In this document: piece after piece, positions 6,129 through 24,665 of the stretch
Position numbering within the stretch: the first letter of the stretch is position 1
Layout of the letters: each line of letters begins with the position of its first letter
Assembly: GCA_963849735.1 (NCBI GenBank)
Contig: CAWKJE010000003.1
Span: 67,595 to 131,594 of the forward strand
DNA from: an uncultured delta proteobacterium
GTDB taxonomy: Bacteria > Myxococcota_A > Polyangia > Fen-1088
Direction of reading: 5' to 3'
DNA length: 64,000 nucleotides
Notes under the pieces: model-generated
The model's input: only the letters and a program-made list of their open reading frames with translations
Database searches by the model: none
What the model was told of the DNA's origin: nothing
Position numbers and translations under genes: made by a program

Positions 6129-7395
6129 TCGCGACCCTGCTGAACGCAGCCATCCGGTACGCATGCGGGCGAACGAGCGTCGGGATCGACCACCCTTCGC
6201 CCGCATCGCGGGCGATCTCGAACTGCCCCGAGCCGACTTCTCGCACCCACGCGTCATCGCCCTTGGCAGACCGATGCCGTGCCAGCAGCATCGCCAGCCC
6301 ATCGGCGACCCGTGAGCTCGGGCCTTTGCTCTTACTGATGAAGATCCGAGCGAGCTCGAATGCACTGGGATCTGGTAGCTGTGTCCCGCTGTCGCGCAAT
6401 CGATCGTTGAGCCGAAGCGCAAGGCGGAGCGATGCGATTCCCAGGGCGAGTGAGGCTGTCTCATCCGTCAACGCAATTGCGCCAAGAGGAGGGACCGGGT
6501 GTTCTCGGGACAAGAGGTGTGCGAGGTCGCGTTCAACATGACGCTGGCGTCCGGCATCGATGGAGCGCACCCAAACAGTGAATAGTGTGTTCAGGCCCAC
6601 GGACAGCCGCTCCCACACCGCAGCCGCTCTCAGCGTCTGGAGGGGTTCGGGCAGCGTTGGCGGCCGGCGACCCTCGTAGCGCGGCAAGACCGTCTCGGGG
6701 CTGAGTCCTTCACGCGAGAAGACGGGACGAATCTCGCGGGCAAATGCCGCTCTCCGCGTTCGTACATCTGAGGATTCGAGGTCGAGGCGGCCACGGATTG
6801 AGAGCCCGAGGACGTCCCGAATCTGGCGGCGCTCGTTCGATGAGATCGCCGAGAGGCAAGCTCGACCAGGAAGTTGGCTGCTAGGGCCCTTGCGATGACG
6901 GACGTCCTTGCGGAATAACTTCGCTGCGTCGACGCCTGCGTCCGTGAGCGAAAAACGCGGGGCCCCCTCGATAAGTCCCAGAGCGACCATCGAAGCCCGG
7001 TAGGCACGCCAGGCAGGCACCTTGTACACGTGACGAGGATCTGCCGGTATCCGGTCACGAGGAAGCGTGCGGATGTTGCGGGAGCCAACGAACTGGCAGG
7101 ACTCGGCGTGGCTCGCGTCTTCGTCGGACAGGAGCGCCTCGGCGAACACGAGCGCGACCTCGTAGCGATGGATTCGGTGTTCATCGTAATCATGGCCGCT
7201 CTCGTCACGGGCCCACGCTAGGAACGTGAAGTAGCGCGCGCGTGTGGTCAGGACCGAAAGCCCAGGGAGCAAACGGTCGGCGAGCCTGTCTGCGACCGCC
7301 TGAAGCGCGAGGGCGTCGGTCGCCCTGGAGCGAAGTGGATCGGGCTCAACCCATGCTGGCAAGACGCCGGAGAGCACCCCCCCATCATAAACCAC
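6109..7395 (-). CDS. hypothetical protein (428 aa), first gene of helicase/PLD operon
   Basis: Long ORF with GTG start at 7395. Stop at 6109 overlaps the start of the PLD gene (6128). No recognisable motif. Confidence 0.55.
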   Translation of the reverse strand: MVYDGGVLSGVLPAWVEPDPLRSRATDALALQAVADRLADRLLPGLSVLTTRARYFTFLAWARDESGHDYDEHRIHRYEVALVFAEALLSDEDASHAESCQFVGSRNIRTLPRDRIPADPRHVYKVPAWRAYRASMVALGLIEGAPRFSLTDAGVDAAKLFRKDVRHRKGPSSQLPGRACLSAISSNERRQIRDVLGLSIRGRLDLESSDVRTRRAAFAREIRPVFSREGLSPETVLPRYEGRRPPTLPEPLQTLRAAAVWERLSVGLNTLFTVWVRSIDAGRQRHVERDLAHLLSREHPVPPLGAIALTDETASLALGIASLRLALRLNDRLRDSGTQLPDPSAFELARIFISKSKGPSSRVADGLAMLLARHRSAKGDDAWVREVGSGQFEIARDAGEGWSIPTLVRPHAYRMAAFSRVANDLRGL

Positions 7396-7416
7396 AAGAG
7401 ACGACCGCCAACCGAG

Positions 7417-8263
7417 ATGTTTCGCACTCGGTTTGGCTTGTGCGTTGGGCGTGCGCCCTGGAGGCTGGCAGCGTTGCGCGGTCTTCGGGGAGCCGCACTA
7501 CCTGGCCACACCCTGGTGGTCTACGATCCGGACACTCTCCTGGTGGTTGACTTGGTGCCGTGCGAAGACGGCCACGCCCAGGAACGGACCCTCGTTCCCG
7601 CGGTCATGGGTACCGTGAAGAAAGGTCAGCTCTGGATAGCGGACAGGAATTTCTCGACCAGGGCCATCATGGCCGACATCGACCGGGCTGGCGGCGCCTT
7701 TGTCATTCGGGAACATGCCGCTTCACCGAACCCGACCGAGCTCGGCTCGGCGCATAGGAAAGGGCAGACTGACTCCGGGGACTTCTACGAGCAGGCAGTT
7801 GAGATTGGTCTCGAGGACGGCACGACCATGGCTTTGCGCCGCATCGAGGTGCGACTGAAAACCCCGACGGAAGACGGCGAGACGGTCATCTGGATCCTGA
7901 CCAACCTGCCCAAGAGGCTCGGGGCTGAAGTCGTAGCGGAGGCGTATCGGCATCGATGGAAAATCGAGAACAGGTTCCAGTGGCTGGAATCGGTCCTGGA
8001 GAGCGAGATACGCACCCTGGGATATCCCCGGGGCTGCGCTGTTCGCGTTCTCGGTGGCGGTACTTGCCTACAATGTCTTGAGCATCATCCAAAGCGCGAT
8101 CGAAACTGCTCACGACATCCAACCCGGGAAAAGTGAACAGATCTCGCTCTATTACGTCGTCAACGAGATCAAGACCACATACGAAGGAATGGTCATTGCC
8201 GTGCCGGAGGAAGAATGGGATGGGTGCCGGTCAATCTCCCCCAAGCAGGTCGCCCAAGGGTGA
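7417..8263 (+). mobile_element. IS4-family DDE transposase remnant (5'-truncated and frameshifted pseudogene)
   Basis: 'WIADRNF' (second D region) and 'YRHRWKIENRFQWLE' (YxxRxxxE signature). The N-terminal ~150 aa including the first D are missing. Reading frame shifts near 8030-8054 (CCCCGGGG run); the expected continuation 'AALFAFSVAVLAYNVLSII...' lies in the 8054-8263 frame. Confidence 0.65.
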
Positions 8264-8369
8264 TGCCCACAGCGCTGTTGAACTTTAAGGGGTAGCGGCG
8301 GCTCCCTGACCGGCCCGAAGATAGGGCTTGTTCAGGACCAACAGTCCCCGAGGGGACAAGGAGCCGCCG

Positions 8370-9669
8370 ATGAAAAGGAAAGCAGAGAACACGACGAACG
8401 GGAAGGCCGAAGGCATGAATTTGAGGGGCCTGGCCACGATGGTGCGGCAAGTAATGCTGCCGATGGTCGCAGGTATCGTAACCACGAAGAAGGCATTGCA
8501 CGAGTGGGTGGCCGAGATGGGGATGGCCGCACTGGTTGGCGTGATGGAGGCCGACGCTGAGCGGGTGGTCGGATGTCGCAAGGGCGGGCACCAGCAGGGA
8601 CGCCGGCTGAGCCACTGGGGCTACACGGACACGCCCTTCCCGTACGACGGACGGCAGGTGGTGCCGCCGCGCCTGCGCGTTCGCACTGTCGACAAGAATC
8701 AGGAGGTGGCGCTGCCTACGGTGGCGAACTTCCAGTCGCTGGACCCGATGAGCATGCGCGTGGTGGACCAGATTCTACTTGGTGTATCAACGCGGGGCTA
8801 CGAGGCAAGCCTGGGCGCAGGACCTGCGGGACTGCGGACCAAGGGAGGGAAGAAGAGTCGCGTGAGCGAGGTGTTCGTCCAGGAGACCAGGCGGCGGATG
8901 AAGGACCGTCTGGCGGAAAGGCTGTATGGCCTGGACTTGGTGGCGATGCTGCTCGACGGTGTGCATGTTGCCGAACACGCAATCGTCGTTGGCCTGGGCA
9001 TAGCTCGAGACGGGGGCAAACACATTCTTGGGCTACGTCAGGGCTCAACGGAGAACGCCATGCTGTGCACGGAGCTGCTCCAGGACTTCGTGGCGCGTGG
9101 GCTGAAGAATATCGAGGGCTTGCTCTACGTGGTGGACGGCGGTAAGGGCCTGCGCACCGCCATACGCGACGTGGCCGGCAACAGCGCAGTGGTACAACGC
9201 TGCCAACAGCACAAGCGCCGGGACGTGGTCGGTCACCTGCCCCAGTCGCGCCAGAAGACCGTCGACCGGATGCTGGTCGATGCGTACAAGAGCGAGAGCC
9301 TGAAGACAGCGCGCAAGCGGCTCGGCCAGATCGTCTCGTGGCTGGAGCGGAACGGTGAAGAAGACGCAGCGGCGAGCCTACGCGAGGGACTGGAAGAAAC
9401 TCTGACCGTCTGGAAGCTCGATCTGCCCGAGCCGCTCCGGCGGTTCTTCGGGACGACCAACGCCATCGAGAACGTCCTCGGAGTCGTGCGCCGGGTGAGC
9501 CGCAACGTGAAGAACTGGCGTCACGGCGCGATGGCGAAGCGGTGGACCGGCATCGGCCTCATAGCTGCTGAGAAGAACTTCCACCGAATCAAGGGTCATC
9601 GCCACATGCCCGCACTTGTCGAGGCCCTCAGGCGACTCCGTCGCCGACAACGTCCGCCGCAAGGAATCC
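8370..9669 (+). CDS. IS256-family (Mutator-type) transposase lacking its own stop codon; ORF runs into the CRISPR array
   Basis: 'QRCQQHKRRDVVGHL' (IS256 QRCxVHKxRN signature). 'LYVVDGGKGLRTAI' and 'TTNAIENVLGVVRRVSRNVKNWR'. ATG at 8370 with AAGGAGCC RBS. No stop until 9866, which is inside translated repeats. Confidence 0.75.
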
Positions 9670-12600
9670 GTTTCAATCCACGCCCGGCCCCGAGGGGCCA
9701 GGCGACACTCGTACCGCTTTCACTGCATCTTCGTGGTCGAGTTTCAATCCACGCCCGGCCCCGAGGGGCCAGGCGACCCGTTGGGCCCGCGCAGCACGTC
9801 CGCCCGGCACAGGTTTCAATCCACGCCCGGCCCCGAGGGGCCAGGCGACGTCCTTCGGCCCCGTGATCATGAGAGCGCAGCTCGGTTTCAATCCACGCCC
9901 GGCCCCGAGGGGCCAGGCGACATCATTCGCGAGCTGCGGGTGGAGGGGTGGCTCGGTTTCAATCCACGCCCGGCCCCGAGGGGCCAGGCGACTCCGAGCA
10001 CGCCGAGCTGCTGCGGGCCGAGCCGGTTTCAATCCACGCCCGGCCCCGAGGGGCCAGGCGACATGTGCCAGTCGCCATGTGGCCGGAGGGCACGGTTTCA
10101 ATCCACGCCCGGCCCCGAGGGGCCAGGCGACACAGCTCCGAGGTGCCAGCCACGCCCACGGAGGTGTTTCAATCCACGCCCGGCCCCGAGGGGCCAGGCG
10201 ACGGTCACGGAAAGTACGCTGTAGCGTCTTGTCCTGTTTCAATCCACGCCCGGCCCCGAGGGGCCAGGCGACCCTGGGCTTGATACTCGCTACTGGGTTT
10301 CACGTGGTTTCAATCCACGCCCGGCCCCGAGGGGCCAGGCGACGCGAAGCTGCCCGACATCTTCTACGTGCGTGCGGTGTTTCAATCCACGCCCGGCCCC
10401 GAGGGGCCAGGCGACACTGCATCGCGCTCTGCTACCCGCCTGCGATTCTGTTTCAATCCACGCCCGGCCCCGAGGGGCCAGGCGACTCACGCAGAATGCC
10501 CAGCAGGTCCAAACCCAGAAGTTTCAATCCACGCCCGGCCCCGAGGGGCCAGGCGACCTGAGCGACCTGGAGCTAGGCAAGCGCGCGTCGGTGTTTCAAT
10601 CCACGCCCGGCCCCGAGGGGCCAGGCGACATGCAAGGCCAATGGCCAGATCTACGGGCTCGACGTGTTTCAATCCACGCCCGGCCCCGAGGGGCCAGGCG
10701 ACATGTTCCCGCCATCGTCCAGCGGGGCAAGGAGGCGTTTCAATCCACGCCCGGCCCCGAGGGGCCAGGCGACCCCGGTGGAACGCCTTGAGCGCCACGA
10801 AGATCCGAGTTTCAATCCACGCCCGGCCCCGAGGGGCCAGGCGACCATCTTCGCCACCGCACCCGTTGCCGGCGAGCCGTTTCAATCCACGCCCGGCCCC
10901 GAGGGGCCAGGCGACGCTGGCTGTGACCGTGAGTCGGCAACCGGACCTTGTTTCAATCCACGCCCGGCCCCGAGGGGCCAGGCGACGATGACGAGCGCCC
11001 AGACGGTGGTAATCCCCTCGTTTCAATCCACGCCCGGCCCCGAGGGGCCAGGCGACCCAGGTTGGATTGGGGCTTGTTGCCCGACAGGGTGTTTCAATCC
11101 ACGCCCGGCCCCGAGGGGCCAGGCGACTTGTCCGTCTTGCTACAAAGCCAAGATGTCGCAGGTTTCAATCCACGCCCGGCCCCGAGGGGCCAGGCGACAC
11201 CCCAGCGCCGTCGTGACGCCAGCCCCGGTTATGTTTCAATCCACGCCCGGCCCCGAGGGGCCAGGCGACAAGGCGCCTCCAATAACCCGGGGCTGGTAGC
11301 CAAGTTTCAATCCACGCCCGGCCCCGAGGGGCCAGGCGACAAGCAGGTGGCTTGGGCGGCCAAGCTGCGCATTGTTTCAATCCACGCCCGGCCCCGAGGG
11401 GCCAGGCGACGAGAGCGCCGTCAGGTCGTACGTCCCGATTAGCCGGTTTCAATCCACGCCCGGCCCCGAGGGGCCAGGCGACTATCGAACGCAGGGACGA
11501 TGGCGCGCAGGATGTGTTTCAATCCACGCCCGGCCCCGAGGGGCCAGGCGACATGGCCGTCGTGGTGCCGGTGCCCGTGCCCGACTGGTTTCAATCCACG
11601 CCCGGCCCCGAGGGGCCAGGCGACTCACCGCGAGCCCGCCAGGCGCAACCGAAGCCGTGGGTTTCAATCCACGCCCGGCCCCGAGGGGCCAGGCGACGTG
11701 CTGAAATGATCGACACCGACGCCGTGTGGATAGTTTCAATCCACGCCCGGCCCCGAGGGGCCAGGCGACACGTCCCGCCGTAAGTCGTCCCCTGCATGAT
11801 CTCGTTTCAATCCACGCCCGGCCCCGAGGGGCCAGGCGACAGCGTCAGTCGGTCTACCAGCTCTACAAGGCTCGGTTTCAATCCACGCCCGGCCCCGAGG
11901 GGCCAGGCGACCCTGCTGCGCGGGTAGGTCCACGGCCCAGGACACGACGTTTCAATCCACGCCCGGCCCCGAGGGGCCAGGCGACACCATGCGGATCTGC
12001 TGCATCACGTCCAGGGAGGGGTTTCAATCCACGCCCGGCCCCGAGGGGCCAGGCGACGCCATGACAGGCCCAACCACCCGCCCAATGTGCTTTGGTTTCA
12101 ATCCACGCCCGGCCCCGAGGGGCCAGGCGACCGGGCAGCCACAGCGGGAGTCCGACGGCAAGTAGGGTTTCAATCCACGCCCGGCCCCGAGGGGCCAGGC
12201 GACAGTGACACCAACGAGATCACGGCCGATGATCTGAAGTTTCAATCCACGCCCGGCCCCGAGGGGCCAGGCGACTCATCGTGCCGTTCGAGATCAGCGA
12301 CACCTTCCGGGTTTCAATCCACGCCCGGCCCCGAGGGGCCAGGCGACGTCCCCGAACACAGCGTCCGTGTCCGTGGCGAACTGTTTCAATCCACGCCCGG
12401 CCCCGAGGGGCCAGGCGACCACTGGAGGTCTGCGCCGACACGCTCAGGGTGATGTTTCAATCCACGCCCGGCCCCGAGGGGCCAGGCGACGTGCTGCGCA
12501 GCGGGCATCCGTCGGGCTCTATGAAGTTTCAATCCACGCCCGGCCCCGAGGGGCCAGGCGACTCTCCGTCGAGCAGCACTTGTAAGTCAGGCTTCGGGTT

Positions 12601-15600
12601 TCAATCCACGCCCGGCCCCGAGGGGCCAGGCGACGGCGCCGGCGCAGACCGAGGCGCCTGCTCCCAAGTTTCAATCCACGCCCGGCCCCGAGGGGCCAGG
12701 CGACGTCGTGGAACCCGAGCCACTTGTCGACCAGGTGATCGTTTCAATCCACGCCCGGCCCCGAGGGGCCAGGCGACCTCACCGATCCGTCTCTTGGCCA
12801 TCACAATATGTTTCAATCCACGCCCGGCCCCGAGGGGCCAGGCGACAGGCGCGCGAGGGACAGGCGCTGGCGGTTATCGAGTTTCAATCCACGCCCGGCC
12901 CCGAGGGGCCAGGCGACACGGGCCACATGACATATCGCTCTGGCAACAATACGTTTCAATCCACGCCCGGCCCCGAGGGGCCAGGCGACACCGAAGGCTT
13001 TGCGCTGCACCGCCAGATGCCGGGTTTCAATCCACGCCCGGCCCCGAGGGGCCAGGCGACCTGCGCCTGGGTCCATTCGTCCGGTTCGGCACGTAGTTTC
13101 AATCCACGCCCGGCCCCGAGGGGCCAGGCGACCTGCGCCTGGGTCCATTCGTCCGGTTCGGCACGTAGTTTCAATCCACGCCCGGCCCCGAGGGGCCAGG
13201 CGACAGAGACGAGCATCGCAGGCATTGCAGCTCTTAGTTTCAATCCACGCCCGGCCCCGAGGGGCCAGGCGACACGCCGCGTGGGCTGAAGTTCTTGCGG
13301 GAGCTGGTTTCAATCCACGCCCGGCCCCGAGGGGCCAGGCGACGGGCGAAGGCCACACCATTACGTACGCGAAAGGAGTTTCAATCCACGCCCGGCCCCG
13401 AGGGGCCAGGCGACGTATCTGCCAGGAGAGTGCACCGAGGATTGCTTCTAGTTTCAATCCACGCCCGGCCCCGAGGGGCCAGGCGACTGGCTCCGATGCC
13501 AATACGGGAGTCAACTATTTGTTTCAATCCACGCCCGGCCCCGAGGGGCCAGGCGACTCAAGTCGCGCAACCCGGCGCGCGCCGAGCTTGAGTTTCAATC
13601 CACGCCCGGCCCCGAGGGGCCAGGCGACGCGGACAATCGGCCATGACCCGCCGCAAGCGCCAGTTTCAATCCACGCCCGGCCCCGAGGGGCCAGGCGACG
13701 GTAATGGGCCGCCACGTCGTTCCCGTCTGCTGGGTTTCAATCCACGCCCGGCCCCGAGGGGCCAGGCGACCCGGTCACCAGTTGACTGCCAATGCCCCAG
13801 CGGCGGTTTCAATCCACGCCCGGCCCCGAGGGGCCAGGCGACCCGCGGCCCAGCCTCCTCTCCGCAGCGGAGCCAGGTGTTTCAATCCACGCCCGGCCCC
13901 GAGGGGCCAGGCGACCTTTCAATGGCGGCGGATTCGGTAGCGCCGAGAGGTTTCAATCCACGCCCGGCCCCGAGGGGCCAGGCGACACCATTAGGTCGTC
14001 GCCCTTGAAGCCGCAGAAGCGTTTCAATCCACGCCCGGCCCCGAGGGGCCAGGCGACCTTGTGCCGCCCGTCTCCCCTACGTCGGGCAAGTCGTTTCAAT
14101 CCACGCCCGGCCCCGAGGGGCCAGGCGACTTTGCGCGCCCGGTTCACGATCATCATCCATTGCTGTTTCAATCCACGCCCGGCCCCGAGGGGCCAGGCGA
14201 CCGGGCGCATCTTGGTGGGGCGCCCAGTACACGTAGTTTCAATCCACGCCCGGCCCCGAGGGGCCAGGCGACTGTACTTGTACGTCACGGCGGGCGCGTG
14301 CCGAGTGTTTCAATCCACGCCCGGCCCCGAGGGGCCAGGCGACGTGCGCCCGTCGGCAAACTTGGGCTGGCTCACGCCGTTTCAATCCACGCCCGGCCCC
14401 GAGGGGCCAGGCGACCCTGGCCGGCGATCTGCTCCGCCGTGCTGCCATCGGAGTTTCAATCCACGCCCGGCCCCGAGGGGCCAGGCGACGTGGGCAAGCT
14501 GGGCGGTGTGTCAGTACACGGACGGGTTTCAATCCACGCCCGGCCCCGAGGGGCCAGGCGACCGCCGGGGACGGTGCCCTACTGGCCGCCGCAAGCGTTT
14601 CAATCCACGCCCGGCCCCGAGGGGCCAGGCGACTTGAGCGGCACGAGGCCCCCCGACCAGAGCGCCGCGTTTCAATCCACGCCCGGCCCCGAGGGGCCAG
14701 GCGACCGGCGAAGAATGCGTCGCGGCGGTTGAGGCACAAGTTTCAATCCACGCCCGGCCCCGAGGGGCCAGGCGACCGTGAGCGAGCTTGGGCCGGCGCA
14801 GCCCATCGAGTTTCAATCCACGCCCGGCCCCGAGGGGCCAGGCGACGCGCGAACGCCCTCGTCATGGCAGACGATGGCGTGTTTCAATCCACGCCCGGCC
14901 CCGAGGGGCCAGGCGACCGTAGCCTGTCGCCGGGTTGCGCAGCTTCGCGCGGTTTCAATCCACGCCCGGCCCCGAGGGGCCAGGCGACGGCGAAGGGAGT
15001 TCTAGGCATCTGGATTTCTTTGTTTCAATCCACGCCCGGCCCCGAGGGGCCAGGCGACGTCTCCCGAGGCATTGAGGCCGCTAGGCTGATTGTCGTTTCA
15101 ATCCACGCCCGGCCCCGAGGGGCCAGGCGACTGCGGCGGGCGTCATGTGGGTATTCACTGCGATGTTTCAATCCACGCCCGGCCCCGAGGGGCCAGGCGA
15201 CAAGAAAGGGCTTGTCAATAGGTCATTTTGCCCCAGTTTCAATCCACGCCCGGCCCCGAGGGGCCAGGCGACACCCTGACCGTGGGGACCGCGCCGCAGA
15301 CCATCTCGTTTCAATCCACGCCCGGCCCCGAGGGGCCAGGCGACATCGACCAGTAGCGAGGCGGCAGCAGGCGCTTACGTTTCAATCCACGCCCGGCCCC
15401 GAGGGGCCAGGCGACGAGCACGGCGAAGCCTTGCGGCTATGGCACAACAAGTTTCAATCCACGCCCGGCCCCGAGGGGCCAGGCGACTCTCAAGCGTTTC
15501 ACGGACTGGACTGGCAACGAGTTTCAATCCACGCCCGGCCCCGAGGGGCCAGGCGACAGACGGCCGAGCATGCTGATTGGCCAGTCAACGAGTTTCAATC

Positions 15601-18600
15601 CACGCCCGGCCCCGAGGGGCCAGGCGACACCGCGCGCTGGGGGCGAAGCTGTGACCCGCCGTGTTTCAATCCACGCCCGGCCCCGAGGGGCCAGGCGACA
15701 AGACTGTGCCCTGCTTCCCCTTGGCGATCTTATTGTTTCAATCCACGCCCGGCCCCGAGGGGCCAGGCGACTGGGTCCTTGCCGAACACGATAGGGCCGA
15801 GGGTGTTTCAATCCACGCCCGGCCCCGAGGGGCCAGGCGACTCGGCGACAGGTTGAACCAAGCGGTCAACGACCTGTTTCAATCCACGCCCGGCCCCGAG
15901 GGGCCAGGCGACCAGCGCAGCCCATGTTCATCCTCGAACGGCAGATGTTTCAATCCACGCCCGGCCCCGAGGGGCCAGGCGACGAATGGACCGCGACGGG
16001 GCTCGCCTTGGTGACGGGTTTCAATCCACGCCCGGCCCCGAGGGGCCAGGCGACAAGATCGCGGCGGCCGTCTTGCCGTCGATCACCAGGTTTCAATCCA
16101 CGCCCGGCCCCGAGGGGCCAGGCGACACCCGCGGGTGCCTGCTGCCCGGACACACCCGAGGCGTTTCAATCCACGCCCGGCCCCGAGGGGCCAGGCGACT
16201 CAGCTGCGTCGACTTGGAGCCCGTGAAGCTGGCGTTTCAATCCACGCCCGGCCCCGAGGGGCCAGGCGACCAAGCAGGTGGCTTGGGCAGCCAAGCTGCG
16301 CATTGGTTTCAATCCACGCCCGGCCCCGAGGGGCCAGGCGACAGAGACGGCCTGGACTGGTACGTAGAGGTAGGCGGGTTTCAATCCACGCCCGGCCCCG
16401 AGGGGCCAGGCGACCTACAGGGGAGGTTAGGCGTGCTCTGTCGCAGCTGTTTCAATCCACGCCCGGCCCCGAGGGGCCAGGCGACCAGACGACCAGATCA
16501 TTTTTCTTGACAAAGAACGTTTCAATCCACGCCCGGCCCCGAGGGGCCAGGCGACGATCACTTGACTGGCCTACCGGACTTGGTGGAGGAGTTTCAATCC
16601 ACGCCCGGCCCCGAGGGGCCAGGCGACCGGCAGCATGCGCACGTTTGAGTACAAGATGCTGTTTCAATCCACGCCCGGCCCCGAGGGGCCAGGCGACATG
16701 GAATCCGCTTGAGCAGGAAACCAAGCTTGAGTTTCAATCCACGCCCGGCCCCGAGGGGCCAGGCGACAAAAACAGCTTGAGGTTGATCGCGCACTGGTCG
16801 GTTTCAATCCACGCCCGGCCCCGAGGGGCCAGGCGACCCCGCACATCGCCAAGCTAGCCCGCGTGCCCGAGATGTTTCAATCCACGCCCGGCCCCGAGGG
16901 GCCAGGCGACCCAAGTGCCGAGGTTTGAGGCTGCATGATGACCATGTTTCAATCCACGCCCGGCCCCGAGGGGCCAGGCGACCAGGTATGCGGCACAGCT
17001 ACGCTCTATGTAGACAGGTTTCAATCCACGCCCGGCCCCGAGGGGCCAGGCGACCTACCGCTGGATGTGTGCTACTCGTGGCAGTGACGTTTCAATCCAC
17101 GCCCGGCCCCGAGGGGCCAGGCGACAGCTCTGCACGCGATTGTCCGCCGCGTACCAGGAGTTTCAATCCACGCCCGGCCCCGAGGGGCCAGGCGACCTCA
17201 CGCGCGCTAGCGCTACCCTGTAGGCATGTGGTTTCAATCCACGCCCGGCCCCGAGGGGCCAGGCGACCTTTGTGCCGGAGGAGGTGTAACATGAGTACCG
17301 CTGTTTCAATCCACGCCCGGCCCCGAGGGGCCAGGCGACCTGCAGGTTCGTGTCAGGCGCCGCCAGGTGCTTGGCGTTTCAATCCACGCCCGGCCCCGAG
17401 GGGCCAGGCGACAAGTGCGACGAGCAGGTTCAGCGCATCGCCGAGATGTTTCAATCCACGCCCGGCCCCGAGGGGCCAGGCGACCGGCTGACGGACGAGC
17501 AGCTGACCGCCATAGCGGAGTTTCAATCCACGCCCGGCCCCGAGGGGCCAGGCGACCGCAACGATCGCGCTCTCCTGGCCGCGCAGCATGCTGTTTCAAT
17601 CCACGCCCGGCCCCGAGGGGCCAGGCGACCCGCTACCCGGTCGAGGTCTTGTGCGGGGCATGGTTTCAATCCACGCCCGGCCCCGAGGGGCCAGGCGACC
17701 CGCGGGGCAGGGAGGCAAGCCTTGATCAAGCACCTGTTTCAATCCACGCCCGGCCCCGAGGGGCCAGGCGACCATGGTTGAGCGATTCCAGGGCCACGCT
17801 GTCCTGTTTCAATCCACGCCCGGCCCCGAGGGGCCAGGCGACTCAGCTCGCGTCGCCAGTCGCCACGATGACTCTTGTTTCAATCCACGCCCGGCCCCGA
17901 GGGGCCAGGCGACCTCCAGCCGTTCCAGGCGCGTGCGCACGGCCGAGTTTCAATCCACGCCCGGCCCCGAGGGGCCAGGCGACACGAAGAAGGGTCGAGG
18001 GCATGGAAAAGACGATGTTTCAATCCACGCCCGGCCCCGAGGGGCCAGGCGACGCGTCGGCCAGGGGTACGAGTTGCCGCCAAAGTAGTTTCAATCCACG
18101 CCCGGCCCCGAGGGGCCAGGCGACCGCGTCCGGGTGGACGGCGGTCACCAAGGTGATGTTTCAATCCACGCCCGGCCCCGAGGGGCCAGGCGACCGGGCT
18201 GAGCACATGGGACTGCAGGTCGGCCAGGTTTCAATCCACGCCCGGCCCCGAGGGGCCAGGCGACGTTTCTCACCACGAGCGACGGTCAACGCATCGAGTT
18301 TCAATCCACGCCCGGCCCCGAGGGGCCAGGCGACTGGCGCGCAGAACAGCGCCAGATGAGCCAGAACGTTTCAATCCACGCCCGGCCCCGAGGGGCCAGG
18401 CGACAAGGCCCCCTCCGAAGAGCGGCACAACTCATCAAGTTTCAATCCACGCCCGGCCCCGAGGGGCCAGGCGACGGCCTGGTGGATTCAATGCTCGCCC
18501 GCCGACATGTTTCAATCCACGCCCGGCCCCGAGGGGCCAGGCGACAAGAGTCGGCCGAGCACGAGGGCAAGGACGCCGAGTTTCAATCCACGCCCGGCCC

Positions 18601-18901
18601 CGAGGGGCCAGGCGACCTGCAAGGGCGGCAGGATGTCCTCGGCGACGTCCTGTTTCAATCCACGCCCGGCCCCGAGGGGCCAGGCGACCAAGACGCGCAT
18701 CTCGGTAACGTTGGCCACGGTGTTTCAATCCACGCCCGGCCCCGAGGGGCCAGGCGACCTGAGGATCTCCTCCCAAAGCAGCGATGAGCTGAGTTTCAAT
18801 CCACGCCCGGCCCCGAGGGGCCAGGCGACAAGCCGCGCCCGAGCATTGCAACGGCGCCGAGAAGGTTTCAATCCACGCCCGGCCCCGAGGGGCCAGGCGA
18901 C
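9670..18901 (-). CRISPR. Type I-C CRISPR array, 130 repeats and 129 spacers; repeat (plus strand) GTTTCAATCCACGCCCGGCCCCGAGGGGCCAGGCGAC
   Basis: 130 copies of a 37-bp repeat with 71-72 bp period and spacers of 32-37 bp. Minus-strand repeat GTCGCCTGGCCCCTCGGGGCCGGGCGTGGATTGAAAC ends in the type I-C 'ATTGAAAC' signature. Same strand as the adjacent cas genes. Confidence 0.98.
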
Positions 18902-19084
18902 GCACCCGCTAAGAATATGGCAGATTTCGCCCACCTACTGGGGCTTCGGCGCGAAGGGTGCAAGTCTCGCGCAGTTGCGCCGCTGTGGCTGGCGGCGCCA
19001 TGGTCGTACTCTTCGAATTTCAGAGAGCAAGTAGCAAGGCGCGAACGGTCACGGACTTTCATGTCCAATCCACCTTCGCGCTGC
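18902..19084 (-). promoter_or_regulatory. CRISPR leader (between cas2 stop and first repeat)
   Basis: 183-bp non-coding, lower-GC segment lying between cas2 and the repeat at 18865-18901, on the transcribed (minus) strand upstream of the array. Confidence 0.6.
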
Positions 19085-19375
19085 CTAGATGATAAGGGGG
19101 GTATCGAAATCGACGCTCGGCTTGGTTCCGTGATGCTCGGCGCGGCCCAGGTCGTCGGACCCCAGAAAATAGAAACGAAGGCTGTCTTCATCCGGGTCGA
19201 AAAGGCGAAGCAGCTTGCCGCGGAGCTCCACCCAAAGGGCATCCGGCAGGCTGCATTCGAAAACCGAGAATTGCACCCGCTGTCCGCAGCTTTCGCATGC
19301 CTTGGCAATACGCCGCAAGCGACGTCGACCCTCTTTGCTTTCCGTCGAGACGTCATAGGTGACCAGGACGACCAT
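19085..19375 (-). CDS. cas2: CRISPR-associated endoribonuclease Cas2
   Basis: 96 aa beginning 'MVVLVTYDVSTE...', the canonical Cas2 N-terminus. Located immediately next to the array. Confidence 0.9.
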   Translation of the reverse strand: MVVLVTYDVSTESKEGRRRLRRIAKACESCGQRVQFSVFECSLPDALWVELRGKLLRLFDPDEDSLRFYFLGSDDLGRAEHHGTKPSVDFDTPLII

Positions 19376-19384
19376 GAAGATACC

Positions 19385-20410
19385 TCAGCCGGCCGGATGA
19401 AAGGGTGGAAAACTCTCAAGATCACGGCGAAGGGTTCGCGCAAGCAGCCTCGCTTCGACATGCGGGACCAGGCCCCAGGTGATTTCGTCCCCAAGCAACG
19501 GGTGCACGATGGTTGTGGCCTTCCTCTCCTGATGGGCCTTGATGACCAGCTTCCGGGCGTCGTCGGTCAGCTCGACGGCGCCGCTCTCGGTCTTTCGGAA
19601 GTCACCGGGGCGAAGCTGCTGGTTGTTTATCAAGGTGAGCACCAGGCGATCGGCCACCAAGGGCCGCAGGTGTTCCATCAGATCGAGAGCCAACGCTGGT
19701 CGTCCAGCCCGGAACGCGTGCAGAAAGCCAAAAGCCGGATCGAGTCCGTTTCCCTGCAGTGCCGACAGGCAGTCGTTCATCAGCAGCGCGTAGGCAAAAG
19801 ACAGCAGACAGTTTATCGGGTCGCGCGGCGGCCGGCGCTGGCGCGATGTCCATCGGAAGTCATCCCCCTGCTGTCGGACCATATCGCCAAATACCTCGAA
19901 GTACCGAGCCGCGGCTTCGCCTTCGCAGCCTCGCACCTGATCGTGCGTTTCCATTCGAATAAGGTCGCCCATGCGCAGCGAACGGGCGGCGTCGCTCAGG
20001 CGAACGGCCGTATCCCCTTCCGACTCCCTAGCAGCCCGCTGCAGGATGTGGCGTTGGTTTGCAATCTTGCCCTGGACGATGCACTTCGCGATGGCCAGGC
20101 TGCGGCCGGCATCGAGGTGGCATTGCATCTGGTTCAGCCGCAAGAGGGCGCCGTTCTCGCTTGTTCCCTCAACTCGCCCGCGGAACCGTCCCTGCTCCGA
20201 AAGGAAGGCGATGCCGACACCGCGCTCCAGGCACAGGGACATCAGCTCGGGGCTCACGTAGGTGTGCCCCATGCATACGATGGACTCCAGGTGGTGCAGG
20301 GGAACTCGTAGCTTCTGTTCGCGATTGACCCGTACGGAAACTGTCTCACCCTCCTTGAAAAGCGCGGCCTCGGCCGCAGTCACGTATAACGTATTCTGGA
20401 GAACCGCCAT
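19385..20410 (-). CDS. cas1: CRISPR-associated integrase Cas1
   Basis: 342 aa from ATG at 20410 ('MAVLQNTLYV...'). The longer ORF to 20677 has an implausible Arg/Gly-rich N-terminus. Lies between cas4 and cas2. Confidence 0.85.
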   Translation of the reverse strand: MAVLQNTLYVTAAEAALFKEGETVSVRVNREQKLRVPLHHLESIVCMGHTYVSPELMSLCLERGVGIAFLSEQGRFRGRVEGTSENGALLRLNQMQCHLDAGRSLAIAKCIVQGKIANQRHILQRAARESEGDTAVRLSDAARSLRMGDLIRMETHDQVRGCEGEAAARYFEVFGDMVRQQGDDFRWTSRQRRPPRDPINCLLSFAYALLMNDCLSALQGNGLDPAFGFLHAFRAGRPALALDLMEHLRPLVADRLVLTLINNQQLRPGDFRKTESGAVELTDDARKLVIKAHQERKATTIVHPLLGDEITWGLVPHVEARLLARTLRRDLESFPPFHPAG

Positions 20411-20412
20411 GA

Positions 20413-21036
20413 TCAGAGCTCCCGCATGTAGGCCGCCAAGTGCCCGCGCGACGGCAGCGAAGGCATACACTGGCCTCGCAAGCTGCACCGCCCACACTTT
20501 GGGCCAGGCTCGGGCTCGGGTGTTCGGCCAGATTGCAGCATGGAAGCGATCGCCGCCACTACTGCCTCTGTGTCCTTGCGAAGTGGCTCGTCGAACGTGA
20601 CTTCCCGCCTGCGGCGGGAAGCCCCGAAATACAGCGCCCCGATCGGAACGGGAACCGCTAGCATCTCCTCCAGACACAGACCTTGGGCGCAGAGCTGCAG
20701 CTCTGCATGCCTGAAGGTGTTGCGCACGCTCCGTTTGTATTCGACGGGGAATGGTTTGCCAGGCGGCGGGTACGCCGGATCGGAATAGAAGACAACCATG
20801 TCCGCCCGCCCGGACAGAGCCAGGTGATCACTCTTCAGCGCAAGCGCCCGCGCCTTCTTCATGCCTGGTCGCTGTTCCAGCCCGGGGAGGTCCACCTGCT
20901 CGTGCATCACCTTGCCCTGAGCGGTGAGCACGTTCTCCGCCCAGAGCCCCTCAAGATGGATCAGCCCACACTGGCGCCTACAAAAGCTCCAGTGCTCGAT
21001 CGCCGAGATCGCGACGAGGCGTTCGTCGTCGTCCAC
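20413..21036 (-). CDS. cas4: CRISPR-associated exonuclease Cas4 (RecB-like, Fe-S cysteines)
   Basis: 207 aa with N-terminal Cys plus C-terminal 'CGRCSLRGQC' cluster. Stop overlaps cas1 start. Confidence 0.8.
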   Translation of the reverse strand: MDDDERLVAISAIEHWSFCRRQCGLIHLEGLWAENVLTAQGKVMHEQVDLPGLEQRPGMKKARALALKSDHLALSGRADMVVFYSDPAYPPPGKPFPVEYKRSVRNTFRHAELQLCAQGLCLEEMLAVPVPIGALYFGASRRRREVTFDEPLRKDTEAVVAAIASMLQSGRTPEPEPGPKCGRCSLRGQCMPSLPSRGHLAAYMREL

Positions 21037-21074
21037 GAAAGGGGTTCTTCTTGAAACCTAGGCGAGGGTCCAGC

Positions 21075-21944
21075 TTAGAAGCCGTTGATCTCTTCCGGTT
21101 TGAGCCTGTCCAGTGGCGTTAGATCATAGCTGCCATCAGCCTTCACTGTCAGCGAGCGGTGGACCTTTGCCGACGAGTACTGCCCTGACTTGCAGTTGTG
21201 TTCCCACCAGAAGACCTTTGCCACTTCCATGCTGCCTTCTGGCCGAGCAGAGGAAGCGTCATTCTCGAATAGCTTGGGGAGGATAGATTTGATAGTGGCC
21301 GCATCGGCGTCAGAGAAGCCGGTGCGTTCAGCGAGTTGCGGGTTCATCGAGCCAAACGTGACATACACGCCGTTGTCCACCCGATGCTTCATCCCCATGG
21401 TGTCGGAGGATCGCTTGCCGCCATCACCCTCTCCACTCACGCTCTTCGTAATCTGCGTGCTGGTCACACTAACTGGCTCGATGCTGAAGGCCGATTGGAT
21501 CGACACAGGTCCGCGAATGCCGATCGAGACGCTGCCGTCGCCCTCGTCGCTCCCCTTTCCCTTCTTTTCACCCGCATATGGGAAGAGCTGGCCAAAGGCG
21601 CGGACGTCAAACCATGTGCTGCATGCAATCTCGACGATCCTGGCTTTCGCCTTTTCCTGACCCATCGTGGCCTCGTACCGCTTTCTCAAGCTTGGGGCAT
21701 CGTCTAGCTTGCGATCATCCGACTGGACGAAGACCGCCTGCCCATTTTGCGGGTCGCCAGATAGGGATGCATAGCGTTCCACGAGCCTGTCGCGGATCTT
21801 GCGTTTCAGGCAAACGTCGGTGATTTCTCCTAGGCCGGAATAGTCGGTCCGCGGACGATTCCCGTTCAGTGGGTCGCCGTTGGGGTTGGCGTTGCGGACG
21901 CGCAGGATCAGGGCAAAATCGACTTTCTTGGTAAGGCTCGGCAT
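21075..21944 (-). CDS. cas7: Cas7c/Csd2 (type I-C Cascade backbone)
   Basis: 'ALILRVRNANPNGDP' Csd2 signature. ATG at 21944 with AGGAGA RBS. Confidence 0.88.
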   Translation of the reverse strand: MPSLTKKVDFALILRVRNANPNGDPLNGNRPRTDYSGLGEITDVCLKRKIRDRLVERYASLSGDPQNGQAVFVQSDDRKLDDAPSLRKRYEATMGQEKAKARIVEIACSTWFDVRAFGQLFPYAGEKKGKGSDEGDGSVSIGIRGPVSIQSAFSIEPVSVTSTQITKSVSGEGDGGKRSSDTMGMKHRVDNGVYVTFGSMNPQLAERTGFSDADAATIKSILPKLFENDASSARPEGSMEVAKVFWWEHNCKSGQYSSAKVHRSLTVKADGSYDLTPLDRLKPEEINGF

Positions 21945-21961
21945 GGTGGATCTCCTTGATA

Positions 21962-23941
21962 TCAATCAGCAGTGGCAGTGGCGCTCGAATCTGCGTCGTC
22001 TGTTTCGACGTGCCGTAGGGCTTGGCGCTGACAGTGATACGCCAGCAGAAACTCGCCCGAGAGTGGATGGTCGTTGCTAAAGGCGTCCTTCTCGTTGGCT
22101 GACGAGAAGTGGCCGAGTACCTCGTCCAGCAGCTCTTCCATGGTCCACAGGAAGGGACTCCGTGACACCCGGAGGCGGCTTTTGTACGGTCCCAGCGAGA
22201 GTTCGATAGTTCGCCAGGTGGTGTACGGGTGATCGGCAAATCGTTGAAATAGGCGCGCCGCGGTTGTGTCCCGGCTTTCCCGGGCAACATAGAGTGCGCG
22301 GCTTTCCAGGTGTTCGGCGATCGCCAGAAGGCGGCCATAAAGGTAATCACGGGTCTTTCGGTCTTCTTCGAGAGCCATCGAGTATCCCCTTTCCTTGTGA
22401 AATCCTTTGAACAGCGCGCAGGCGATGCCTAAGCACTTCTCCCATTCCCATTCTTCACCCTTGGGTCTTGAACGGGCGAAGGTTCGATGTGTGCAACTTG
22501 TCACCAAGTCATAGGGAATGGCGCACTCATCGATGAGGCAAGGAAGAAGCCTCTCAAGCGTGGCCTTACGAAGCTTCTCGTTCTCTTCAGCTCGCGGACC
22601 GTAGGCGGCGTGCACGATGTCGCGAAGTGAAGGCGCACCGACAAATCTGCGATCCCGTCCCATGTCTTGGTGCCACGCCAAGTCGACGTGCCAGGCCTGT
22701 ATGCGTGCCAGAAAATCCGAGGCGCGCAGTTCCCGGTAGTAGACGATGGCGATACCGCCCTTCTTGGGTAACGCCGAGTCAAGGCCGAGCACCATAACGC
22801 CATCACCGTCATCCAAGTTCGCCTGATAGCCAGCAAGCGTGCGCCGCAGACGTTGGGCGAACTCGTACCCCACGTCTCCTGCCTGGCTTGTCGAATCTAT
22901 GCTGTCCAGCTGGTGAGCGGACAAGTCGCTTTCGCCGGTGAGCAATTTCAAGGTGTCTGCCCATGGATCGGGAATCTTGTGCCCGGCGGGCGACCAAGCG
23001 ACGAATACTTGATCTCCTTCCCGAACGAATGCCTGCCTGCGCTCGATCAACCAGCGGAGAGCATAGTGCGCCTTCTGGGAGACATCGTAGGCTACGCCAA
23101 ACGCTTGTGCCGCGTCCTGGAATCTGCCTCGATAGGTAAATCCAGCCTTGTCATTGGCTGAGATGAGCTTGGCGTTGTCGCCCGCGTGACGGATTTTCTT
23201 GGGATGTTGCTTGGCCAGGGGAGCTGTACGCCCGGTGACTTGGCAAACGTCGCCGGTGGCCTGTCGGCTTGCATAGAACTTCTGCCAGGCGAGGATGAGC
23301 GCCGGATCTTCCCAAGTACCGGTACACAATTCCCTTCGGGACTCAATGCGCCAACGGATGAATGCATCGGTCGGCGATTGGCCGTTGCCGAGGGCCTGGA
23401 AGATCGCGGGGGCGGTTCCGCGATCACGCGGCCACTCCTTGACGACCTCCGGGACACCGCTAGGAGCCCCGTCGGTTACGGGCAGAACTCCAGACGTAAC
23501 TAGGTCCGCTACGACCTTGCCGCGTTGGACATATGCCAGCACTGCATCGAGCTTGACCAGACCCGTTGAGAACCTGGCCCATTTCTGCAGGAGGCCCAAA
23601 TAGTCGTCATGAGGCGCGCCAGGGGTATTGGCGAATCCGGACGTAACTTCACCGCCGTAGTCCCGGAAGTCCTTGGCAACATACTGGAGATTGTCGCAGA
23701 GAGGATGACTCGACGGCATCGTGCCCGAGCGCCCGCCAGATTCCTCAGTGCATGGGACCAGTGTTTGTTGTTGGTCTTTCGGTATGAGCAACGCTCGGCG
23801 GAATTCCCCCTTCTCATCGATGACTATTTCGATATGCGCCTGTTGGGTCGTATGCGCGATGGGCAGCAGGGCCTTTGCATCGGGAAGGTCGGAACCGGCA
23901 CAGCGCTCGTAGGTATCATAGAGCTTTTGCATCCAGGACAT
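21962..23941 (-). CDS. cas8c: Cas8c/Csd1 (type I-C large subunit)
   Basis: ~659 aa between cas5 and cas7. ATG at 23941 ('MSWMQKLYDTYERCAG...'). Confidence 0.8.
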   Translation of the reverse strand: MSWMQKLYDTYERCAGSDLPDAKALLPIAHTTQQAHIEIVIDEKGEFRRALLIPKDQQQTLVPCTEESGGRSGTMPSSHPLCDNLQYVAKDFRDYGGEVTSGFANTPGAPHDDYLGLLQKWARFSTGLVKLDAVLAYVQRGKVVADLVTSGVLPVTDGAPSGVPEVVKEWPRDRGTAPAIFQALGNGQSPTDAFIRWRIESRRELCTGTWEDPALILAWQKFYASRQATGDVCQVTGRTAPLAKQHPKKIRHAGDNAKLISANDKAGFTYRGRFQDAAQAFGVAYDVSQKAHYALRWLIERRQAFVREGDQVFVAWSPAGHKIPDPWADTLKLLTGESDLSAHQLDSIDSTSQAGDVGYEFAQRLRRTLAGYQANLDDGDGVMVLGLDSALPKKGGIAIVYYRELRASDFLARIQAWHVDLAWHQDMGRDRRFVGAPSLRDIVHAAYGPRAEENEKLRKATLERLLPCLIDECAIPYDLVTSCTHRTFARSRPKGEEWEWEKCLGIACALFKGFHKERGYSMALEEDRKTRDYLYGRLLAIAEHLESRALYVARESRDTTAARLFQRFADHPYTTWRTIELSLGPYKSRLRVSRSPFLWTMEELLDEVLGHFSSANEKDAFSNDHPLSGEFLLAYHCQRQALRHVETDDADSSATATAD

Positions 23942-23942
23942 G

Positions 23943-24665
23943 TTAGGCCCCCCATTCGTTGGCTTCGGTCTCCACGGGCCTGACGTTCTTGCCGAGGCCA
24001 AAGCGCTTGGCCGTCATATCGCGGACGACTTTTCGGATGGCGCACTCCTCGGGGCGAGGGAATCGCAGGACGCCGTCGACCAGCTTCGGCATCCAGAAGC
24101 GGGCTTGTAGTCTGTTGTCACCAGTCTCGTCTGGATAGTCGAAACCATGGAACATCAACCCGAAGCCAAGCTCGCCAGCATCGTCAAGCTCCCCTGTGCC
24201 TGAGCCGAATTCGCTGGGTTCGACGTATCCCTGGCAATCGCGCGTGCCTAGGAAGATGTCCTGTCTGCCGCCGCGTTCGAGCATGCGTTGGGCGATCGCG
24301 AAATGCTTCCCGTCGACTCGGTCCTTGGCCAGATCCGGCTGGGCTTTGTTCCAGACGAAATGAGCCTGGACCTGATACTCGACGTTGGCGAGGAACGTGT
24401 AGATCGCCAGGGCGTTGCCGCCACCATATTTGAGAGGCTTTGTTCCCTTCGTCTGCGTACGAACCCGCTTCATCACCCGCACTTGGTCGATCACCCAGAT
24501 GAGCGTAGGCTTCCAGTAGATCGACTTGGCGATGCCCTTCAACGCCTCGTAGGTTGGAATGTGGTACGAGCACTTCTCGCCACCGATCTTGGTCAATGGA
24601 TCGGTGAAGAGCGCGTAGCGTCCCCAGGTCTTGAATTCAAGCGTGTTTTTGGATTTGCTCGACAT
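23943..24665 (-). CDS. cas5: Cas5c/Cas5d (type I-C, pre-crRNA processing subunit)
   Basis: 240 aa beginning 'MSSKSKNTLEFKTWGRYALFTDP'. Position in the operon is cas3-cas5-cas8c-cas7. Confidence 0.85.
   Translation of the reverse strand: MSSKSKNTLEFKTWGRYALFTDPLTKIGGEKCSYHIPTYEALKGIAKSIYWKPTLIWVIDQVRVMKRVRTQTKGTKPLKYGGGNALAIYTFLANVEYQVQAHFVWNKAQPDLAKDRVDGKHFAIAQRMLERGGRQDIFLGTRDCQGYVEPSEFGSGTGELDDAGELGFGLMFHGFDYPDETGDNRLQARFWMPKLVDGVLRFPRPEECAIRKVVRDMTAKRFGLGKNVRPVETEANEWGA

What the first reader, a model, noticed from the sequence alone, without database searches (positions are those of the whole stretch)
7400..9706. Nested IS remnants; IS256-family transposase ORF lacks a stop codon and runs directly into the distal end of the CRISPR array, implying IS-mediated truncation of the array
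An IS4-family transposase fragment (5'-truncated, frameshifted) is followed immediately by an IS256-family transposase gene. The latter is of normal length (~423 aa) up to ~9640, but there is no stop codon and no recognisable right inverted repeat before the first CRISPR repeat at 9670. Translation simply continues through repeats to 9866. The trailer-end repeat is a perfect copy rather than the degenerate terminal repeat usually found. This looks like a deletion joining the 3' end of the IS to an internal repeat, which would have removed the oldest spacers and the original trailer.
Basis: partly seen in the sequence, partly recalled or inferred. Interest (0 to 1): 0.55.

Follow-up and report, generated by a model that had tools for sequence, protein, structure and literature searches.

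The report
Truncated IS fused to CRISPR repeat
A dead, 3'-truncated IS256-type insertion sequence, itself sitting inside a dead IS4-type element, is fused by a short-homology deletion to an 8-base stump of a CRISPR repeat at the old end of a 130-repeat type I-C array; this is an ordinary genomic scar, not a new mechanism.

Summary
An IS4-family transposase fragment (7462-8257; residues 143-407 of 462; +1 frameshift near 8030) is interrupted by an IS256-family element starting at 8259. That element keeps 1373 of about 1472 bp. It lacks the last 15 codons, the stop codon and the right inverted repeat, so its ORF runs into the array as far as 9866.

The type I-C cas operon and leader lie at the 18901 end, so 9670 is the trailer side.

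Three corrections apply:
- The junction is at 9629-9636, not at 9670. CAGGCGAC there is the last 8 nt of a 131st repeat, followed by a 33-nt orphan spacer (9637-9669).
- Intact IS copies read CAGCCGAC at this point, a 7/8 microhomology. Because the IS's own end was destroyed, this was illegitimate recombination that hit the IS, not a transposase-mediated deletion.
- How many spacers were lost cannot be determined; it could be none. No relative showing the pre-deletion state was found.

The same junction occurs in an independent short-read assembly, so it is not an assembly artefact. Interest is low: it is one more case of a known kind of scar.

The parts
7462..8257 (+). IS4-family transposase pseudogene fragment: residues 143-407 of a 462-aa protein. 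It is 5'-truncated, has a +1 frameshift (an extra G in the CCCCGGGG run, about 8027-8037), and is cut at its 3' side by the IS256 insertion.
   Evidence: PF01609 E 3.6e-14. It aligns at 95% identity to P0121 residues 143-407. tblastn places it in two frames, 7462-8037 and 8027-8257. NF033592 scores 86.5 bits for the fragment, below the 115 cutoff because it is truncated, and 136 bits for the intact relative.
8259..9631 (+). IS256-family element: the first 1373 nt of about 1472. It comprises the left inverted repeat (GGTGATGCCCACAGCGCTGTTGAAC..., about 8259-8290), a 5' UTR, and transposase codons 1-420 (8370-9629). The last 99 nt are missing: 15 codons, the TAG stop and the right inverted repeat.
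   Evidence: It is 99% identical at the nucleotide level to the intact copy in L001, with 15 differences. The ends were defined from four independent intact copies of 1468-1472 bp; L018 carries an 8-bp direct repeat, AGCGGTGG. NF033543 scores 173 bits against a cutoff of 150.
9629..9636 (.). Deletion junction. CAGGCGAC equals the last 8 nt (+ strand) of a CRISPR repeat. CAG (9629-9631) is shared with the IS, which reads CAGCCGAC in L001.
   Evidence: Direct reading and the alignment to L001. No intact IS copy has G at the position of 9632. An 8-mer within one mismatch of CAGGCGAC occurs at about 0.001 of window positions.
9637..9669 (-). Orphan terminal spacer of 33 nt. Its trailer-side repeat is reduced to 8 nt, so a crRNA made from it would lack the 3' repeat hairpin.
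   Evidence: Its length falls within the spacer range of 32-37 nt. It is non-IS sequence. It is identical in L003.
9670..18901 (-). CRISPR array of 130 perfect 37-nt repeats and 129 spacers. It is transcribed on the minus strand, where the repeat reads GTCGCCTGGCCCCTCGGGGCCGGGCGTGGATTGAAAC.
   Evidence: for the repeats and for the spacers. The repeat shares GTCGC... and ...GCGTGGATTGAAAC with the type I-C repeat of Xanthomonas oryzae (PMC8916207).
18902..19084 (-). Leader, lying between the cas2 stop codon and the first (newest) repeat.
   Evidence: Contig L006, from another sample, has the same leader (one difference within the leader; 4 mismatches in the 874-nt aligned cas1-cas2-leader-repeat stretch) but a first spacer that is absent from this array.
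19085..27129 (-). Type I-C cas operon: cas2 19085-19375, cas1 19385-about 20410, cas4 20413-21036, cas7 21075-about 21944, cas8c/csd1 21962-about 23941, cas5d 23943-24665, cas3 24637-about 27129.
   Evidence: Pfam hits and the precomputed Pfam annotation of the 99.99-100% identical contigs L003-L005 and the near-identical L002 (same gene order; about 99.9% over its unambiguous alignment).
8370..9866 (+). Chimeric 498-aa ORF: transposase residues 1-420 followed by 78 residues read through the junction, the orphan spacer and three repeats. Gene callers list it as a protein, but it is an artefact of the fusion.
   Evidence: It is called as a 498-aa gene on ENA contig_135113.

Best explanation
The locus records three successive events in a defence island.

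First, an IS4-family element sat beyond the trailer end of a type I-C CRISPR array.

Second, an IS256-family element of about 1472 bp transposed into the IS4 transposase gene at about codon 408. Its left end supplies the TGA that now ends the IS4 ORF.

Third, a single illegitimate, transposase-independent recombination joined nt 1373 of the IS256 element to the last 8 nt of a CRISPR repeat. The join used the near-identical octamers CAGCCGAC (IS) and CAGGCGAC (repeat), through replication slippage or microhomology-mediated end joining. This event deleted the last 99 nt of IS256 (15 codons, stop codon, right inverted repeat), the 3' part of IS4 (about 55 codons plus its end), whatever lay between IS4 and the array, and at least 29 nt of one repeat. 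An unknown number of older repeat-spacer units, possibly none, may also have been lost.

Consequences:
- The IS256 copy has only one end and cannot move.
- Its ORF has no stop codon and reads into the array as a meaningless 498-aa fusion.
- The last spacer (9637-9669) has no complete trailer-side repeat and probably cannot give a mature crRNA.

What is shown: the nesting, the extent of what is missing, the junction sequence, the array polarity, and the reality of the junction in two read sets. What is inferred: the order of events, the repair mechanism, and that the event was a simple deletion rather than a larger rearrangement.
For: Intact homologues are 435 aa, and the window copy diverges after residue 420.

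The DNA alignment to L001 (99% identical) ends at ...GAGGCCCTCAG. L001 then continues for 99 nt through TAG and an end sequence, CCCCAAGATCAACACGCTGGCGGGCAACACC, that is the inverted complement of the left end.

Four independent copies with different flanks fix the IS ends. One of them has an 8-bp target duplication.

The window reads CAGGCGAC at 9629-9636, identical to the repeat's last 8 nt. It is followed by 33 nt of non-IS sequence, a typical spacer length (range 32-37), and then by the first full repeat. G at 9632 is found in no intact IS copy. A 7/8 match is expected at about 0.001 of positions.

The IS4 fragment corresponds to residues 143-407 of 462 and stops exactly at the IS256 left end.

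The identical junction is present in short-read contig L003 from run SRR28023769 (100% identity over 8146-9706) and in ENA contig_135113.

The cas operon, the leader position and the I-C repeat orientation place 9670 at the trailer end. A related strain differs in its leader-proximal spacer.
Against: No genome with the undeleted arrangement was found, so the deleted material is inferred rather than seen.

Only one junction is visible. An inversion or translocation with its reciprocal junction outside the 64-kb window would look the same here.

The repeat origin of the octamer rests on one diagnostic base (G9632) together with the spacer-length spacing, because 7 of the 8 nt are also native to the IS.

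The IS4 5' truncation at about 7460 is a separate event that remains unexplained.
Confidence: 0.85

Rival explanations
1. Transposase-mediated (truly IS-mediated) adjacent deletion. The IS256 transposase acted on its own end and a nearby target in the array, removing the DNA in between.
For: An IS lies directly against the truncated array. IS-driven deletions of CRISPR/DR loci are well known, for example IS6110 in the Mycobacterium tuberculosis DR locus (from established knowledge; topic of PMC7820667, listed).
Against: Such deletions begin exactly at an intact IS end. Here the right inverted repeat and 99 nt of the element are themselves missing, and the break lies inside the transposase ORF on a microhomology.
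Confidence: 0.03
2. The IS256 copy is complete and simply inserted into the array. Its transposase ORF naturally lacks a stop codon and reads out of the element.
For: No stop codon precedes 9866. Some IS families are known to place their stop codon in or beyond the terminal repeat (established knowledge).
Against: Every close homologue is 435-443 aa and ends ...DQEEAAG*. Four intact DNA copies carry TAG followed by a 53-nt tail ending in the right inverted repeat, and the window lacks this. The element's left flank is IS4 sequence, not CRISPR sequence.
Confidence: 0.02
3. The junction is an assembly chimera made at repeated sequence.
For: CRISPR arrays and IS elements are classic sites of misassembly. 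L003 shows the array collapsed to a single repeat.
Against: The IS-stump-spacer-repeat junction is unique sequence. It is 100% identical in an independent short-read assembly (SRR28023769) and matches the ENA contig (about 99.9% identical over the aligned stretch that spans the junction). An 8-nt overlap is far below assembler k-mer sizes.
Confidence: 0.03
4. The event was a larger rearrangement (inversion or translocation between the IS256 interior and a repeat) rather than a simple deletion. The lost IS tail and the older spacers would then survive elsewhere in the genome.
For: Only one of the two possible junctions can be examined in the window.
Against: The 99-nt IS tail and the missing IS4 N- and C-terminal parts are absent from the 64-kb window. 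The short-read assembly of SRR28023769 runs through the whole IS256 copy without a break, which suggests it is single-copy there (inference).
Confidence: 0.07

Closest known systems
IS256 family insertion sequences (Mutator-type DDE transposase, PF00872 / NF033543)
   Same: The transposase scores above the NCBIfam equivalog cutoff. The element is about 1.47 kb with imperfect terminal inverted repeats of about 30 bp. An intact relative (L018) has an 8-bp target duplication.
   Different: The window copy is a one-ended remnant. It has no right inverted repeat, no stop codon, and the last 15 codons are replaced by array read-through.
IS4 family insertion sequences (DDE_Tnp_1, PF01609 / NF033592)
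   Same: The fragment is 95% identical to a 462-aa IS4-family transposase that scores above the NF033592 cutoff.
   Different: Only residues 143-407 remain, and they are frameshifted. Both ends of the element are missing.
IS-associated erosion of CRISPR arrays, e.g. IS6110 in the Mycobacterium tuberculosis DR locus
   Same: A CRISPR array borders on insertion-sequence DNA and has lost repeat sequence at the junction.
   Different: In the classic cases an intact IS sits in the array, or recombination between IS copies removes spacers. Here the IS end is itself deleted and the join is a microhomology event, so the IS is collateral damage rather than the agent.
Type I-C (Dvulg) CRISPR-Cas loci
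   Same: The gene set is cas3-cas5d-cas8c-cas7-cas4-cas1-cas2, followed by leader and array. The repeat starts GTCGC and ends GCGTGGATTGAAAC, like the Xanthomonas oryzae I-C repeat, and spacers are 32-37 nt.
   Different: The repeat is 37 nt rather than 31-32 nt. The array is very long (130 perfect repeats) and has a truncated terminal repeat.

Membership tests
IS256 family IS | Transposase of the Mutator/IS256 type scoring above curated thresholds | tested here: met
   PF00872 scores 94 bits against a cutoff of 21. NF033543 scores 173 bits against a cutoff of 150.
IS256 family IS | Two terminal inverted repeats bounding the element | tested here: not met
   The left inverted repeat is present at 8259 onward. 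The right one is absent from the window copy but present in intact relatives L001, L009, L018 and L020. The window copy is a remnant of a member, not a functional member.
IS256 family IS | 8-9 bp target-site duplication | tested here: inconclusive
   It cannot be tested in the window because the right flank is deleted. One intact relative (L018) has AGCGGTGG on both sides; the other three show none.
IS4 family IS | DDE_Tnp_1 transposase scoring above curated thresholds | tested here: met
   PF01609 scores 53 bits against a cutoff of 23. The fragment scores 86.5, below the NF033592 cutoff of 115, because it is truncated. Its 95%-identical full-length relative P0121 scores 136.
IS4 family IS | Complete element with both ends | tested here: not met
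   Residues 1-142 and 408-462, and both terminal repeats, are absent from the window.
Type I-C CRISPR-Cas | Signature genes cas8c/csd1 and cas5d together with cas3, cas7, cas4, cas1 and cas2 | tested here: met
   PF09709 E 6e-116, PF05107, PF01867 and Cas3 domains. PF09704 (Cas5d), PF01930 (Cas4) and PF09827 (Cas2) are annotated on the 99.99-100% identical contigs L003-L005.
Type I-C CRISPR-Cas | Repeat whose 3' end supplies the 11-nt 5' handle ...GGATTGAAAC | tested here: met
   The minus-strand repeat ends GCGTGGATTGAAAC, as in the Xanthomonas oryzae I-C repeat (PMC8916207). No Rfam CRISPR-DR model reached its threshold.
Transposase-mediated adjacent deletion | Deletion endpoint coincides with an intact IS terminus | tested here: not met
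   The endpoint lies 99 nt inside the element, within the transposase ORF.
Microhomology-mediated (illegitimate) deletion | Short sequence identity shared by the two parental sequences at the junction | tested here: met
   The IS reads CAGCCGAC and the repeat reads CAGGCGAC, 7 of 8 identical, with CAG unambiguous at the crossover. Chance is about 0.001 per position. The parental IS sequence is taken from relatives, not from this genome.

The most novel reading that the evidence does not exclude
The deletion was provoked by the type I-C system itself. A spacer since lost from the trailer end, or a mis-primed event, directed Cascade-Cas3 against the neighbouring IS4/IS256 DNA. Processive Cas3 degradation was then repaired by microhomology-mediated end joining between the IS interior and a repeat. 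The scar would then be a natural example of the long-range, microhomology-repaired deletions that type I-C systems produce when made to self-target in the laboratory.
Probability: 0.05. Interest if true: 0.4.

Novelty: new member of a known kind. Interest (0 to 1): 0.15.

Why it matters
The main value is practical.

For annotation, the 498-aa 'transposase' that gene callers report here is a fusion artefact. The array has 130 full repeats plus an 8-nt stump, and 130 spacers, the last of which is orphaned.

For CRISPR biology, it is a clean, base-resolved example of a trailer end being trimmed by ordinary illegitimate recombination at a microhomology with neighbouring mobile-element debris. That fits the accepted view that arrays lose old spacers by deletion.

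It opens no new question and shows no new mechanism.

Tried and rejected
- An inverted-repeat search between 8200-8370 and 9600-9760 for a right IS end found nothing convincing.
- A search for other copies of either IS in the window found none.
- A search of the window for the missing 99-nt IS256 tail and for the missing IS4 N- and C-terminal parts found only chance matches of 10-15 nt or very weak protein hits.
- An exact search for the terminal spacer in JGI metagenome contigs gave 0 hits.
- An exact search for the repeat in JGI metagenomes gave one unrelated array, L022. It has no homology to the window outside the repeats and no clear degenerate terminal repeat.
- Exact-protein look-ups of ZacA, Cas2, the fusion ORF and an in-array ORF, used to find strains with another trailer arrangement, returned only the same strain, or contigs that stop at the first repeat.
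- Look-up of P0121, to obtain intact IS4 DNA, found it was not on record.
- Rfam at gathering thresholds over 7000-19400 gave no hit, so it offered no independent call on orientation.
- The promoter scan of the leader was not informative.
- Spacers were compared with the intact IS256 copies and with the rest of the window as a test for self-targeting. Only chance matches of 14-15 nt appeared.
- A test for pseudogene decay of the IS256 ORF was inconclusive. There are 4 window-specific replacements at otherwise invariant positions, within the range of 0-5 seen in close homologues.
- I considered whether the CRISPR repeat could act as a surrogate IS end, because of a TCAA..CACGC resemblance to the right inverted repeat. 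I rejected this because the junction is inside the ORF, not at an IS end.
Full report
**What is there**

The window holds a CRISPR array of 130 identical 37-nt repeats at 9670-18901, where none is expected by chance. It has 129 spacers of 32-37 nt.

To its right, on the minus strand, lies a complete type I-C operon:
- cas3 24637-
- cas5d 23943-24665
- cas8c/csd1 21962-
- cas7 21075-
- cas4 20413-21036
- cas1 19385-
- cas2 19085-19375

This rests on the Pfam hits and the precomputed annotation of 99.99-100% identical contigs (L003-L005).

The 183 nt between cas2 and the repeat at 18865-18901 are therefore the leader.

Read on the minus strand, the repeat is GTCGCCTGGCCCCTCGGGGCCGGGCGTGGATTGAAAC. 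It shares its start (GTCGC) and its end (GCGTGGATTGAAAC) with the type I-C repeat of Xanthomonas oryzae, GTCGCGTCCTCACGGGCGCGTGGATTGAAAC. In that repeat the last 11 nt form the crRNA 5' handle (PMC8916207).

A contig from another sample (L006) has the same leader, with a single base difference in it. Its first spacer, however, is absent from this array, as expected at the acquiring end.

**The two IS remnants**

ORFs 7417-8136 and 8054-8263 are an IS4-family transposase fragment (PF01609). The closest homologue, P0121 (462 aa, 95% identical), aligns by residues 143-407 only. The alignment uses two frames, 7462-8037 and 8027-8257. The frameshift is one extra G in the CCCCGGGG run.

The first 142 and last 55 codons, and both ends of that element, are absent from the window.

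From 8259 an IS256-family element follows (PF00872; NF033543 at 173 bits against a cutoff of 150). The TGA that appears to end the IS4 ORF (8261-8263) lies inside this element's left end, GGTGATGCCC. IS256 therefore inserted into the IS4 transposase gene at about codon 408, and the nesting is real.

**How much of the IS256 copy is missing**

Homologues are 435-443 aa. The best, P0001, is 98% identical and 435 aa long. The window protein is colinear to residue 420 and then diverges. All homologues end ...SR(Q/R)AAKG(V/I)DQEEAAG*.

I retrieved intact DNA copies from four independent contexts: L001, L009 (an Anaeromyxobacteraceae MAG), L018/L019 and L020/L021. Their flanks differ, which fixes the element at 1468-1472 bp, running from GG(T/C)GATGCCC... 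to ...CTGGCGGGCAAC(A/T)CC. L018 has an 8-bp direct repeat, AGCGGTGG, on both sides.

The window copy spans 8259-9631, which is 1373 nt with 15 differences from L001. It lacks the final 99 nt: 15 codons, TAG, and a 53-nt tail ending in the right inverted repeat.

**The junction**

The window reads ...GTCGAGGCCCTCAGGCGAC|TCCGTCGCCGACAACGTCCGCCGCAAGGAATCC|GTTTCAATCC....

- CAGGCGAC (9629-9636) is exactly the last 8 nt of the CRISPR repeat on the + strand.
- The following 33 nt are not IS sequence and have a normal spacer length.
- The first full repeat then begins at 9670.

Intact IS copies read CAGCCGAC (L001), CAGCCGGC, CAGCCGCC or CAGTCGGC at this site. None has the G found at 9632.

The IS interior and the repeat end therefore share 7 of 8 nt, and the crossover lies in or next to CAG (9629-9631). 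An octamer within one mismatch of CAGGCGAC occurs at about 0.1% of window positions, so the coincidence of homology and breakpoint is unlikely to be chance.

The array therefore has a 131st repeat reduced to an 8-nt stump, and a 130th, orphaned spacer at 9637-9669.

**Is it real?**

A short-read contig from a different run, L003 (SRR28023769), is 100% identical over 8146-9706. It then jumps from the single repeat to the leader, which is the usual collapse of an array. ENA contig_135113 carries the same arrangement at about 99.9% identity. The junction is unique sequence and is not an assembly artefact.

**Mechanism**

A transposase-driven adjacent deletion would begin precisely at an intact IS end. 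Here the end itself is gone and the break lies in the ORF at a microhomology.

The best explanation is a transposase-independent illegitimate recombination, by slippage or microhomology-mediated end joining. It deleted:
- the IS256 tail;
- the IS4 3' part;
- whatever lay between IS4 and the array;
- at least 29 nt of one repeat.

The mechanism is inferred. The structure of the product is shown.

The number of older spacers lost cannot be determined, and the truncated repeat could even have been the original terminal one.

An unrelated array with the identical repeat (L022) also ends in a perfect copy next to unique DNA, with no convincing degenerate repeat.

**Consequences (inference)**

- The IS256 copy has one end and is immobile.
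- Its ORF runs as a 498-aa fusion to a stop at 9864-9866, and public gene calls list it as a protein.
- The last spacer lacks the downstream repeat hairpin that Cas5d processing uses in type I-C, so it probably gives no mature crRNA.

**What could not be done**

No relative with the undeleted state was found:
- The terminal spacer is absent from JGI metagenome contigs.
- The repeat scan gave only L022.
- Exact-protein look-ups returned only this strain.

The missing IS pieces are not elsewhere in the 64-kb window. A rearrangement with a distant reciprocal junction is therefore not excluded, though it is unlikely.

No spacer matches the intact IS256 copies or the rest of the window, so there is no support for a self-targeting origin.

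**Verdict**

It needs three corrections: the junction position and the extra spacer, the absence of any transposase role, and the unknown spacer loss.

This is an ordinary scar of genome decay in a defence island. It is useful for annotation and is of low general interest.

Noticed in passing
window 2184-7395, minus strand: A three-gene operon lies immediately left of the IS remnants and gives weak hits to the Azaca anti-phage system. The genes are 6109-7395 (ZacA, E 9e-11; DUF6361), a PLD-like protein at about 4313-6127 (ZacB, E 5e-11), and an SNF2 helicase at 2184-4316 (ZacC E 1e-15, though DrmD scores better). The IS debris and the CRISPR locus therefore sit in a defence island.
   Followed up: partly
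window 7396-7461: The IS4 fragment starts abruptly at about 7460, only about 65 nt upstream of the zacA-like start codon (7395, minus strand). The event that removed the first 142 codons and the left end of IS4 is separate from the IS256-array deletion and remains unexplained.
   Followed up: no
window 13061-13095 and 13133-13167: Two adjacent spacers are identical (CTGCGCCTGGGTCCATTCGTCCGGTTCGGCACGTA). This is a tandem duplication of one repeat-spacer unit inside the array, and the only duplicate among 129 spacers.
   Followed up: no
window 9670-18901: All 130 repeats of a 9.2-kb array are identical, without a single variant. That is notable for so long an array. It could reflect recent growth, homogenisation, or consensus polishing of a long-read assembly.
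   Followed up: no
L008 (ends at window 7500) and L003 (starts at window 8146): The short-read assembly of SRR28023769 breaks inside the IS4 fragment but runs uninterrupted through the whole IS256 remnant. This suggests that IS4 is multi-copy and that this IS256-like element is single-copy (a relic) in that genome.
   Followed up: partly
window 27140-28126, minus strand (L002 433-1419): A WYL/WCX-domain protein of 328 aa is encoded directly upstream of cas3. It is a likely transcriptional regulator of the type I-C operon. Two further WYL-domain genes lie beyond the Azaca-like operon on the same contig (L007 18090-20089).
   Followed up: no
L022 1-260 (JGI Ga0181535_10009377): An unrelated metagenomic contig carries the identical 37-nt repeat with different spacers. 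Its trailer end is a perfect repeat abutting unique DNA. So this repeat type occurs in other genomes, and a degenerate terminal repeat is not the rule for it.
   Followed up: partly
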